64,000 nucleotides of DNA from Escherichia coli (GTDB lineage: Bacteria > Pseudomonadota > Gammaproteobacteria > Enterobacterales > Enterobacteriaceae). The DNA lies in NCBI RefSeq assembly GCF_003018255.1, contig NZ_CP027440.1, one strand, 5' to 3'. The notes beneath the pieces were generated by a model. The model worked only from the letters and a program-made list of their open reading frames with translations. It searched no databases and was not told the DNA's origin. Shown piece by piece: positions 27,355-29,687 of the stretch (positions are counted from its first letter, which is position 1; the number at the start of each line of letters is the position of its first letter). The translations under genes were made by a program, and so were the position numbers.

Positions 27355-29687
27355 AAAACCGTTTCATCCTTTGTGACGGACTCGTCGTTCTGAGCATCTT
27401 CCACGTCTGCCGTAAATGCGTCGTCCACCGCCGACAACCGAATCCGGGCAATCGCCGTGTTAGCCGCCATTTTCTGCAACAGCAGCAGCGAGAGCGGCGG
27501 TAGCATGTCGCCATCGATGACCGATTCCAGCATCCTCGCGCCGTTTTCCGCGCGGGTGACGCGGCTCATGATTTCGTCCGTCACTTCCGGTTCAATGACC
27601 ACTTCTGCACCAAAGCGACTGCGCAGCACGTTATCCAGACGGGCCAGTTTTCCGGCGATAATGGTGGCGAGCGTCTCTTTCGACAGCGGCAGATACGGCA
27701 CCACTTCCATACGCGCCAGCAGGGCAGGTTTGAAGAAGTCGGCCAGCACCGGATACAGTTCTTCCTGCATGGTTTCCGGGTCATCGGCGTGCTCGACTAT
27801 TACCTGGTAGCCGAGGTTGGACGTCAGGAAGAAGACGATATTTTTGCAGTCAATCAGGCGGCCTTCACCGTCTGCCATTTCGCCCTTATCGAACGACTGG
27901 TAGAACAGGTTGAGCACATCCGGGTGCGCTTTTTCCACTTCATCGAGCAGTACTACCGAGTAGGGTTTCTGGCGAATCGCTTCGGTCAGTACGCCGCCTT
28001 CACCGTAGCCAACGTAGCCCGGAGGCGAACCAATCAGCCGCGAGACGGTGTGTTTCTCCTGGAATTCGGACATATTGATGGTGGTCAGGTACTGGCGACC
28101 GCCGTAGAGCAGCTCTGCCAGTTGCAGGACGGTTTCGGTTTTACCCACACCGCTGGGGCCAGCCAGCAGGAACGCACCGAGCGGGCGTCCCGGACGACGC
28201 AGGTCTGCGCGTGCGGTCAGTAGATGCTTATGCAGGCTGGCAATCGCCAGGTCCTGGCCTTTGATGGTGTCGCCCAGCCATTTCGGCAGGTCGGTGATGA
28301 CCGACATTTCATTCTGCGACAGGCGGTTGAGCGGCACGCCGGTCCATTCGGCAATCACCGCCGCAATCTGTTTTTTATCGACGTGCGGGGAGACCAGCAA
28401 CCGGTCGTTATGCAGGGCGTCCAGTTCGGCAGTGAGCTGGGCCAGCCGCTGTACCGGGGAAACTGTTTCAGCGGTCTCTTCCGGCTGTTCTCTGTCGGCC
28501 TCATCAGCCGGTACGGCACCGGTATTATCCTGTTCTGACTCTGACTCTGACTCTGACTCTGACTCTGACTCTGACTCTGACTCTGACTCTGGCGGCGTAT
28601 CCTCCACGGTATCTGCGTCCGGCAACGGCGCCGCATCGTCCTCTGCCACGCCCAGCAATTGCTGGCGCAGCGCGATAATCTCCTGTACCAGCGCCTGCTG
28701 CTGATGCCAGGCGGCCTCCAGTTCATCCAGCGCCGTCAGCGTTTCATCATACTGCACCAGCACCTCGGTCATCCGTGATGTGTCGGTACGCAGCCCGATG
28801 CGAAGCTCGCGCTCAAGCTGGCGAATTTCCGCCTCCTGCTGGTGGCTCAGAGTGGTCAGCGCCGAGATTTGCTTCGGCGGCGAGGAAAGGTTAATGGCGA
28901 CGCGGGCGCAGGCGGTATCCAGCACATCAATGGCTTTGTCCGGCAACTGACGCCCGGAGAGATAACGTTCGCTCAGCGTTGCTGCGGCCTGCAAGGCGTC
29001 ATCATCAATCAGCACGCCGTGAGACTGTTCATAGACCGCCGACAGACCACGCAGAATAATGGTGGCTTCAGCGGCGTTGGGTTCGCTGACCTTCACTAAC
29101 TGGAAGCGGCGCGACAGAGCGGCATCTTTCTCGAAGTATTTTTTGTATTCGCTCCAGGTGGTGGCGGCGATGGTTTTCAGTTCGCCGCGCGCCAGCGCCG
29201 GTTTGAGCAGGTTGGAGATATCCAGCCCGCCCTGCTGGTTGCCCGCGCCAATCAGGGTATGTGCTTCGTCAATAAACAGAATGACCGGCACCGGAGAGGA
29301 AATGACCTCCGCCATCAGCCCCTTGAAGCGTTTTTCGAATTCGCCCTTCACCGACGCCCCGGCCTGCAATGCGCCCAGGTCAAGGGTCATGATATCGGTG
29401 TTTTTCAGTTTGTCCGGCACCTGGCCTGCCACGATGCGCAGCGCCAGCCCTTCGATTAAGGCACTTTTACCCACGCCTGCTTCGCCCACCACCACCGGGT
29501 TGTTCTTGCGGCGGCGGCAGAGAATGTCGATCATCAGGTTGATTTCGTGGTCGCGGCACAGTACCGGGTCAAGCCTGCCGTTACGGGCGTCTGCGGTCAT
29601 GTTTTTGGCGTAGCGGGCAAGCAGGGTGTCAGCAGCGTCCGTCAGTGTGCATCCGGCACGACTGATTCCGCCGACTCCTGTGTCCAC
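27351..29687 (-). CDS. clpV: T6SS AAA+ ATPase ClpV/TssH, ATPase body (D1 and D2) lacking the N-domain, which is in a separate overlapping frame
   Basis: 778-aa ORF with Walker A motifs GEAGVGKSALIEGLA and LLAGPSGVGKTE; ORF finder starts it at an internal GTG; contains an (SE)9 repeat. Confidence 0.85.
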   Translation of the reverse strand: MDTGVGGISRAGCTLTDAADTLLARYAKNMTADARNGRLDPVLCRDHEINLMIDILCRRRKNNPVVVGEAGVGKSALIEGLALRIVAGQVPDKLKNTDIMTLDLGALQAGASVKGEFEKRFKGLMAEVISSPVPVILFIDEAHTLIGAGNQQGGLDISNLLKPALARGELKTIAATTWSEYKKYFEKDAALSRRFQLVKVSEPNAAEATIILRGLSAVYEQSHGVLIDDDALQAAATLSERYLSGRQLPDKAIDVLDTACARVAINLSSPPKQISALTTLSHQQEAEIRQLERELRIGLRTDTSRMTEVLVQYDETLTALDELEAAWHQQQALVQEIIALRQQLLGVAEDDAAPLPDADTVEDTPPESESESESESESESESESEQDNTGAVPADEADREQPEETAETVSPVQRLAQLTAELDALHNDRLLVSPHVDKKQIAAVIAEWTGVPLNRLSQNEMSVITDLPKWLGDTIKGQDLAIASLHKHLLTARADLRRPGRPLGAFLLAGPSGVGKTETVLQLAELLYGGRQYLTTINMSEFQEKHTVSRLIGSPPGYVGYGEGGVLTEAIRQKPYSVVLLDEVEKAHPDVLNLFYQSFDKGEMADGEGRLIDCKNIVFFLTSNLGYQVIVEHADDPETMQEELYPVLADFFKPALLARMEVVPYLPLSKETLATIIAGKLARLDNVLRSRFGAEVVIEPEVTDEIMSRVTRAENGARMLESVIDGDMLPPLSLLLLQKMAANTAIARIRLSAVDDAFTADVEDAQNDESVTKDETVL

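What the first reader, a model, noticed from the sequence alone, without database searches (positions are those of the whole stretch)
28535..28590. In-frame hexanucleotide microsatellite (CTGACT)x9 inside clpV, encoding a (Ser-Glu)9 linker
A perfect tandem hexamer array of about 56 nt lies in the coding sequence and translates to ESESESESESESESESESE in an acidic stretch between the ClpV ATPase domains. Hexamer slippage keeps the frame, so this is a candidate length-variable region rather than an on/off switch. Perfect coding microsatellites of this length are uncommon in enterobacterial core genes.
Basis: seen in the sequence. Interest (0 to 1): 0.5.

Follow-up and report, generated by a model that had tools for sequence, protein, structure and literature searches.

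The report
Known length-variable repeat in E. coli clpV
A perfect nine-copy six-base repeat sits inside the type VI secretion ATPase gene clpV/tssH of E. coli; its copy number really does vary between strains (1 to 40), but it is an already used strain-typing marker lying in a floppy protein loop, and in this particular sequence the gene is broken upstream anyway.

Summary
Window 28534-28591 is a perfect period-6 array. On the coding (minus) strand it reads GAGTCA x9 (28536-28589) and encodes (Glu-Ser)9.

The gene is tssH/clpV of the T6SS island beside tRNA-Asp (aspV). About half of complete E. coli genomes carry this island, so it is accessory, not core.

The array is a true VNTR. Direct counts in 12 other genomes give 1, 1, 1, 3, 7, 9, 13, 14, 18, 21, 30 and 40 units. 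Four allele pairs have zero substitutions elsewhere in the gene yet differ by 2-10 units. E. albertii has one unit, so the expansion arose within E. coli.

All changes are in frame, so this is length variation, not an on/off switch. The tract lies in a 48-residue low-confidence acidic loop (AlphaFold pLDDT about 40) in the ClpB-type middle domain. That segment is hypervariable across the TssH family.

Published MLVA primers bracket the repeat perfectly. By amplicon size it is locus CVN016 of the 10-locus generic E. coli scheme.

The gene is therefore a pseudogene here.

Verdict: real, correctly read, already known, ordinary mechanism.

The parts
28536..28589 (-). GAGTCA x9 in codon register, encoding (Glu-Ser)9. 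This corresponds to residues 524-541 of the intact 935-aa protein.
28534..28591 (.). Maximal perfect period-6 run (9.7 copies), extended 2 nt into each flank.
28476..28619 (-). Acidic, low-confidence loop of the middle domain (intact residues 514-561, pLDDT about 40-49) that contains the repeat. It lies between helix 461-508 and helix 568-583.
   Evidence: AlphaFold model; gap in the ClpB alignments, query 498-571; segment is 18-87 aa in 81 family representatives
28351..28372 (+). Perfect match to the MLVA forward primer GCAATCACCGCCGCAATCTGTT.
   Evidence: primer sequence from PMC8143711 and PMC8261245
28864..28882 (-). Perfect match to the MLVA reverse primer CGCCGCCGAAGCAAATCTC. The amplicon is 532 bp = 478 + 9x6.
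27351..30139 (-). tssH/clpV, here 2789 nt (not a multiple of 3), so a pseudogene. The intact allele in the closest genome is 2808 nt / 935 aa.
29647..29648 (.). Junction of a 19-bp deletion. On the coding strand GCAGACGGTAAAGGCGCAG is missing, with 3-nt GCA microhomology. It removes codons 164-169 plus 1 nt, giving a frameshift and a stop after residue 165.
   Evidence: No complete E. coli genome carries the junction.
29642..30139 (-). Upstream remnant ORF of 165 aa, the ClpV N-terminal domain.
   Evidence: TIGR03345 profile positions 4-148
27351..29687 (-). Downstream remnant ORF of 778 codons from a GTG. It holds both AAA+ modules, the middle domain and the repeat.
26611..27354 (-). vasI, the downstream neighbour in the T6SS operon.
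30148..30909 (-). tssL/icmH (DotU family), the upstream neighbour.
16740..16816 (+). tRNA-Asp (aspV) at the edge of the T6SS island.
   Evidence: PMC5363993

Best explanation
The array is a slippage-prone coding VNTR with unit GAGTCA (Glu-Ser) in tssH/clpV of the aspV-linked E. coli T6SS island. A single ancestral GAGTCA (the state in E. albertii and many E. coli) was duplicated in some E. coli lineages. Once several perfect copies exist, replication slippage adds or removes whole units far faster than point substitutions accumulate. The unit is two codons, so every change keeps the frame and only alters the length of a poly(Glu-Ser) stretch. These changes are tolerated because the stretch lies in an intrinsically disordered acidic loop of the middle domain, a segment that varies freely in length and sequence across the whole TssH family. 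The outcome is a largely neutral length polymorphism that works as a fast molecular clock. It is already used as an MLVA typing locus (CVN016 by amplicon size). It is not an expression switch. In this window the gene is also inactivated by an unrelated private 19-bp deletion upstream, so here the tract has no protein-level consequence unless an N-domain-less product is made. Shown: the repeat, the polymorphism, its in-frame nature, the identical-background variation, its location in the protein and the primer match. Inferred: slippage as the mechanism, and neutrality.
For: The array is perfect and unique in the window. The gene and operon are identified. Direct unit counts are 1, 1, 1, 3, 7, 9, 9, 13, 14, 18, 21, 30 and 40 with conserved flanks. 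In 59 genomes sampled evenly down the ranking, match spans imply 1-30 units, with 43 of 59 at 4 or fewer and 12 of 59 at 9 or more. Thirty-seven alleles with identical flank score span 14-40 units. Zero substitutions lie outside the repeat for the pairs 30/40, 14/18, 21/13 and 9/7 units. An interrupting GAATCA sits at unit 11 in the 30-unit allele and unit 13 in the 40-unit allele, so tracts on both sides of it change. E. albertii and other Escherichia cluster representatives have one unit. ClpB alignments break around the tract. AlphaFold gives pLDDT below 50 for residues 514-561 in a model with mean pLDDT 90. The segment is 18-87 aa in 81 family representatives. MLVA primers match perfectly, and 532 = 478 + 54. 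Typing papers report this locus varying within sequence types, for example ST38 with alleles 10-20 (PMC3407997). All long-tract alleles are annotated as intact CDS.
Against: Neutrality is not demonstrated, since no functional or selection test was possible. The distribution has many 1-2-unit alleles and a long tail, which fits length-dependent slippage but does not exclude selection on length. Slippage itself is inferred from the pattern and was not measured. The CVN016 label rests on amplicon-size arithmetic and secondary papers, because the original description (Lobersli et al. 2012) could not be read and two papers label these primers CVN017.
Confidence: 0.85

Rival explanations
1. Adaptive tuning. 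The length of the acidic Glu-Ser loop in the ClpV middle domain modulates ATPase regulation or sheath (TssB/C) disassembly. Slippage would then provide heritable, rapidly reversible quantitative variation in T6SS activity, acting as a 'rheostat' contingency locus.
For: The tract sits in the middle domain. In ClpB, from established knowledge that was not tested here, that domain's distal arm regulates activity and docks Hsp70. Very long alleles (up to 40 units, or 80 residues) persist as open reading frames in many clinical isolates. Variation is fast on identical backgrounds.
Against: Open frames are guaranteed by the 6-nt unit, so they say nothing about selection. The loop is poorly conserved in length and sequence across the family, and the site is a single unit in E. 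albertii. These points argue for low constraint rather than tuned function. In the window the gene is already a pseudogene. No phenotype data exist.
Confidence: 0.1
2. Classical phase-variable (on/off) contingency locus, in which repeat slippage shifts the reading frame of clpV.
For: It is a long perfect simple-sequence repeat inside a gene of an accessory virulence and competition system.
Against: The unit is 6 nt. Every array-length difference observed is a multiple of 6, and all 12 other alleles read through. The frameshift in the window comes from a 19-bp deletion 1 kb upstream, not from the repeat.
Confidence: 0.01
3. Artefact. The copy-number differences reflect mis-assembly of a repeat rather than biology.
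For: Short-read assemblies can collapse or expand tandem repeats. The longest arrays (240 bp) approach short-read lengths.
Against: The genomes compared are complete assemblies from many laboratories. Counts form a smooth series that matches independent capillary fragment sizing in MLVA studies, with alleles up to 41 in PMC3407997 and 1-15 in PMC3519732. The window's 54-bp array is well within read length, and an independent genome has the identical 9-unit allele.
Confidence: 0.02

Closest known systems
Generic E. coli MLVA (GECM-10) locus CVN016 (Lobersli et al. 2012; used in PMC3407997, PMC3877011, PMC5217547, PMC3519732)
   Same: The unit is 6 bp. The published primers match the window perfectly on both sides of the array. 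The amplicon of 532 bp equals the published offset 478 plus 9x6. The locus is absent ('null') in many strains, is highly polymorphic, varies within sequence types and has reported alleles up to about 41.
   Different: Two secondary papers print these primers under the name CVN017. The pair they call CVN016 gives a constant 279-bp product at a tRNA-Ser, which fits the CVN017 offset of 202, so the label rests on size arithmetic. No held paper connects the marker with clpV or the T6SS.
ClpV (Z0254) of the aspV-linked T6SS of EHEC O157:H7 EDL933 (Wan et al. 2017, PMC5363993)
   Same: It is the orthologous gene in the same island and position. The O157 allele read here (Xuzhou21, L003) differs from the window at 107 positions across the gene outside the repeat. 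Z0254 is required for T6SS-dependent KatN secretion, and ClpV-GFP forms foci.
   Different: The O157 allele has 3 units and is intact. The window allele has 9 units and a 19-bp frameshifting deletion.
ClpB/Hsp104 disaggregases (e.g. T. thermophilus ClpB, PDB 1QVR; E. coli ClpB 4D2Q)
   Same: It has two AAA+ modules and a coiled-coil middle domain inserted after the first. Sequence matches reach E = 1e-151 and the same helix order appears in the AlphaFold model.
   Different: Where ClpB has about 30 ordered residues (1QVR 467-496), this ClpV has about 74, mostly a disordered acidic loop holding the repeat. The TssH equivalog model scores above its cutoff and the ClpB model scores below its cutoff.
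Simple-sequence contingency loci of Haemophilus/Neisseria/Campylobacter (phase variation by repeat slippage)
   Same: It is a perfect short tandem repeat inside a gene of an accessory host- or competitor-interaction system, mutating much faster than the surrounding sequence.
   Different: Those loci use units or homopolymers whose slippage shifts the frame or alters promoter spacing, switching expression on and off. Here the unit is two codons and only protein length changes.

Membership tests
TssH/ClpV (T6SS AAA+ ATPase) | Match to the curated equivalog model TIGR03345 above its cutoff | tested here: met
   The window's 778-aa remnant scores 1021 bits (cutoff 884.95), and intact alleles with 1, 9 and 40 units score about 1122 bits.
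TssH/ClpV (T6SS AAA+ ATPase) | Encoded within a T6SS core gene cluster | tested here: met
   tssA, vasI, tssL/icmH and tssK were identified in the window. The rest of the cluster (tssM, tssJ, tagH, tssG/F/E, tssC/B, hcp, vgrG) is annotated in the 99.66%-identical genome.
TssH/ClpV (T6SS AAA+ ATPase) | One continuous reading frame joining the sheath-binding N-domain to the two AAA+ modules | tested here: not met
   A 19-bp deletion at window 29647/29648 splits the gene into 165-aa and 778-codon ORFs. The window copy is therefore a pseudogene of the family.
VNTR / MLVA typing locus CVN016 | Published primer pair flanks the array, and amplicon = offset + n x 6 | tested here: met
   Both primers match with 0 mismatches, and the 532-bp amplicon = 478 + 54. 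The label conflicts with the primer tables of two papers, and was resolved by the 279-bp product of the other pair and the 475-bp 'zero' allele in PMC3877011.
VNTR / MLVA typing locus CVN016 | Copy number differs among strains, including closely related ones | tested here: met
   1-40 units were counted directly. Four allele pairs with 0 substitutions differ by 2-10 units.
Phase-variable simple-sequence contingency locus | Slippage changes the reading frame or promoter spacing so that expression switches on and off | tested here: not met
   The unit is 6 nt. All array-length differences are multiples of 6, and all alleles examined stay in frame across the array.
Phase-variable simple-sequence contingency locus | Elevated, reversible mutation rate at the repeat, measured in culture | not testable with these tools
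   Only comparative evidence is available, namely variation on identical backgrounds.
ClpB-type middle domain | Coiled-coil insertion after the first AAA+ module, alignable to ClpB | tested here: met
   Query 178-497 aligns to 1QVR 151-466 and query 572-894 aligns to 497-825. The model has helices 429-453, 461-508 and 568-583.

The most novel reading that the evidence does not exclude
The Glu-Ser tract acts as a heritable 'rheostat'. Its length, changed by slippage, would alter how the ClpV middle-domain arm regulates ATPase activity or engages the contracted sheath, so that E. coli clones rapidly diversify in T6SS firing and recycling rate. The MLVA marker CVN016 would then report a functional polymorphism rather than a neutral one.
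Probability: 0.07. Interest if true: 0.5.

Novelty: already known. Interest (0 to 1): 0.2.

Why it matters
The practical value lies in interpretation. A routinely used E. coli typing marker turns out to sit in the middle-domain loop of the T6SS ATPase ClpV. This explains its frequent 'null' alleles, because the aspV T6SS island is absent from about half of genomes. It also explains its very high resolution within clones. In addition, it gives a natural allelic series (1-40 Glu-Ser units on otherwise identical proteins) that could be used to ask whether the ClpV middle-domain loop has any function. For this window specifically, the T6SS is probably not functional, because clpV is frameshifted and a VasL-domain gene is also frameshifted. 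The repeat therefore has no phenotypic meaning here. None of this changes current understanding of repeat slippage or of T6SS.

Tried and rejected
1. I suspected the most variable generic MLVA locus, CVN014, and the O157 MLVA loci. The CVN014 primers and 8 other primer pairs have no site in the window even at up to 4 mismatches. Only the pair printed as 'CVN017' matches.

2. I tried to read the original locus description (doi 10.1016/j.mimet.2011.11.003), but it is not held. The CVN016/CVN017 label was instead resolved indirectly by amplicon arithmetic and by locating the other primer pair.

3. I looked for the 19-bp deletion in other genomes. Neither the whole-gene query nor a 121-bp junction query found it in 5426 complete genomes, so it is private or an error in this sequence. 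I could not distinguish these without reads.

4. I searched the held literature for a link between clpV and VNTRs, and between CVN016 and the T6SS. Nothing relevant was found.

5. The search for homologous proteins returned only Escherichia among its best 120 hits, so it did not show other genera. The 50%-identity representative search was used for that purpose.

6. The alternative-frame ORFs over the repeat (SDSD... on the + strand, QSQS... on the - strand) are by-products of the periodic sequence inside a strongly supported TssH frame.

7. An on/off switch was considered and rejected on unit length.

Full report
**1. Observation**

The window reads tgactc nine times at 28536-28589 on the + strand. 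Tandem Repeats Finder reports 28534-28591, period 6, 9.7 copies, 100% matches, score 116. It is the only perfect array with a unit longer than 3 nt and at least 4 copies in the 64 kb. None of 200 shuffles of the window gave even four perfect hexamer copies.

On the minus strand the units are GAGTCA in codon register, which encodes (Glu-Ser)9 followed by Glu.

**2. The gene and its state in this window**

The minus-strand frame over the repeat is a 778-codon ORF (27351-29687). It matches the NCBIfam equivalog for TssH/ClpV (TIGR03345) at 1021 bits against a cutoff of 884.95. The ORF just upstream (29642-30139, 165 aa) matches the first 148 positions of the same model.

The neighbours are tssA, vasI, tssL/icmH and tssK. 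The closest complete genome is E. coli DETEC-S792, 99.66% identical over 42 kb. In that genome the full island runs from tRNA-Asp (window 16740-16816) through tssM, tssA, vasI, tssH, tssL, tssK, tssJ, tagH, tssG/F/E, tssC/B, hcp and vgrG to RHS elements. This is the aspV-associated T6SS island described in EHEC EDL933, where the orthologous ClpV (Z0254) is needed for secretion (PMC5363993).

In DETEC-S792 tssH is one 2808-nt gene of 935 aa. In the window the same interval is 2789 nt. The alignment shows one substitution and a 19-bp deletion after gene nucleotide 489 (window 29647/29648), flanked by a 3-nt GCA microhomology. This shifts the frame and gives a stop after residue 165.

No complete E. 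coli genome among 5426 carries that junction. I cannot tell from the sequence alone whether the deletion is real or an assembly or laboratory artefact.

**3. Copy number varies**

A 1.1-kb query around the repeat matched 2735 of 5426 complete E. coli genomes, so the gene is accessory, not core. Match spans differed from the query span by -69 to +126 bases.

I fetched twelve loci and read the tract directly. The counts are:
- 9 units: DETEC-S792
- 30 units: strain 405
- 3 units: O157:H7 Xuzhou21
- 1 unit: E24377A
- 40, 14 and 18 units: L005, L006 and L007
- 1 degenerate GAATCG unit: L008
- 1 unit: L009
- 21, 7 and 13 units: L010, L011 and L012

The flanks are conserved, and every count equals the one predicted from the span. 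The two span classes that are not multiples of 6 (-51 and -69) come from other in-frame indels in the same acidic segment (L008, L009).

I converted the 59 full-length rows of the evenly spaced sample into unit counts. This gives 20 genomes with 1 unit, 13 with 2, 4 with 3, 4 with 4, and a tail of 5-30. In total 43 of 59 have 4 units or fewer and 12 of 59 have 9 or more. The window's 9 units sit in the upper fifth.

**4. It changes fast**

Thirty-seven genomes have identical flanking score (5015 bits), yet their gene lengths run from 2838 to 2994 nt. That corresponds to 14-40 units, verified at 14, 18, 30 and 40.

I aligned tssH with the array removed. Four pairs have zero substitutions outside the repeat but different counts:
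- L002 and L005: 30 vs 40 units
- L006 and L007: 14 vs 18 units
- L010 and L012: 21 vs 13 units
- Window and L011: 9 vs 7 units

An interrupting GAATCA unit is unit 11 of the 30-unit allele and unit 13 of the 40-unit allele, so the tracts on both sides of it have changed.

In the E. albertii and other non-coli Escherichia cluster representatives in which the segment could be extracted (110 of the 120 listed hits), the site is a single unit, PESEQ. The expansion therefore arose within E. coli.

This pattern is what replication slippage of a perfect short tandem repeat produces, with instability rising with copy number. Slippage is inferred here, not measured.

**5. Consequence for the protein**

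Because the unit is two codons, all alleles stay in frame. This is length variation, not phase variation.

In the intact 935-aa protein the tract is residues 524-541. Alignments to solved ClpB structures cover query 178-497 (1QVR residues 151-466) and query 572-894 (1QVR 497-825). About 74 residues are left unaligned where ClpB has about 30.

An AlphaFold2 model built on an 82-sequence alignment has mean pLDDT 90. Only three segments fall below 50:
- 163-172, the N-domain linker, which is where the 19-bp deletion falls
- 514-561
- the C-terminal tail

Residues 514-561 lie between a long helix (461-508) and a return helix (568-583) of the coiled-coil middle domain. Across 81 TssH representatives at 38-63% identity to the query (alignment A1), the corresponding segment is 18-87 residues (median 38), with no conserved sequence.

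The tract is therefore in a disordered, family-wide hypervariable loop in the distal part of the middle domain, the region aligned with ClpB motif 2. This explains why 2 to 80 extra residues are tolerated. In ClpB the equivalent arm regulates activity and docks Hsp70. That is established knowledge and was not tested here, and whether the ClpV loop has any role is unknown.

**6. Comparison with what is known**

Primer tables for the 10-locus generic E. coli MLVA scheme (PMC8143711, PMC8261245) contain one pair that matches the window with no mismatch, at 28351-28372 (+) and 28864-28882 (-), bracketing the repeat. None of the other nine pairs matches.

The amplicon is 532 bp. Using the size formulas in PMC8143711, (532-478)/6 = 9, and this is the formula given for CVN016. 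The tables, however, print these primers as CVN017.

The pair printed as CVN016 gives a constant 279-bp product next to a tRNA-Ser in sampled genomes. That is impossible for an offset of 478 but compatible with 202. PMC3877011 reports a 475-bp 'zero-repeat' CVN016 product. I conclude that the clpV repeat is the locus reported as CVN016 and that the primer labels are swapped in those two tables. The original paper (Lobersli et al. 2012) is not held, so this stays an inference.

Typing studies describe CVN016 as:
- often null
- among the most diverse loci (Nei index 0.70)
- spanning 1-15 repeats in non-O157 STEC (PMC3519732)
- variable within ST38 (alleles 10-20) and reaching 41 (PMC3407997)

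All of this agrees with what I see in genomes. No held paper links the marker to clpV or the T6SS.

**7. Verdict**

The phenomenon is an already exploited VNTR with an ordinary mechanism.

Three corrections apply. The gene is frameshifted in this window. The tract is in a middle-domain loop rather than a simple inter-domain linker. The gene is accessory rather than core.

The most novel reading not excluded is that tract length tunes ClpV function. I give this about 7%, because the loop is unconstrained across the family and no functional data exist.

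Noticed in passing
window 29647/29648 (tssH codon 164): A private 19-bp deletion with 3-nt GCA microhomology frameshifts tssH. It is absent from all 5426 complete E. coli genomes searched. It falls in the disordered N-domain/AAA1 linker (model residues 163-172).
   Followed up: yes
window ~20231-21641 (-): The VasL-domain T6SS gene is annotated 'frameshifted' in the 99.66%-identical genome DETEC-S792. The window has no indel relative to that genome here, so it shares the frameshift (the ORF in the window runs 20291-21730). The island thus carries two broken genes.
   Followed up: partly
window 48018-49307, 49769-51059, 51733-53022: There are three copies of a ~1.29-kb ISAs1/ISEc1-like element next to RHS fragments, whereas the closest genome shows one in the compared stretch. 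The TRF 43-bp and 29-bp repeats at 49261-49351 and 52995-53051 lie at their edges.
   Followed up: no
L002, L005, L006, L007, L010 (RefSeq annotation of long-tract alleles): tssH alleles with 14 or more units are often named only 'AAA family ATPase' in RefSeq. TIGR03345 still scores 1123 bits on the 40-unit allele, but the match splits into two stretches, against one stretch for the 1- and 9-unit alleles. This may cause the generic name.
   Followed up: partly
literature: PMC8143711 Table 1 and PMC8261245 Table 2: The primer labels for MLVA loci CVN016 and CVN017 are inconsistent with the amplicon-offset formulas in PMC8143711. The pair labelled CVN017 amplifies the clpV repeat (offset 478), and the pair labelled CVN016 amplifies a constant 279-bp product at a tRNA-Ser.
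   Followed up: yes
window 61141-61327: A 101-bp unit is repeated 1.9 times at 90% identity and contains REP-like GCCGGATAAGGCG / GCATCCGGC motifs. It is probably a BIME/REP cluster.
   Followed up: no
window 42700-42752: A 24-bp unit is repeated 2.2 times (89% matches) within the vgrG/RHS part of the island.
   Followed up: no
window 4981-5175 and 8519-8595: tRNA-Ile and tRNA-Ala (an rRNA operon spacer) and a first tRNA-Asp after the 5S rRNA show that the window starts inside an rrn operon upstream of dkgB-dnaQ. There is one single-base indel relative to DETEC-S792 at window 8280.
   Followed up: no
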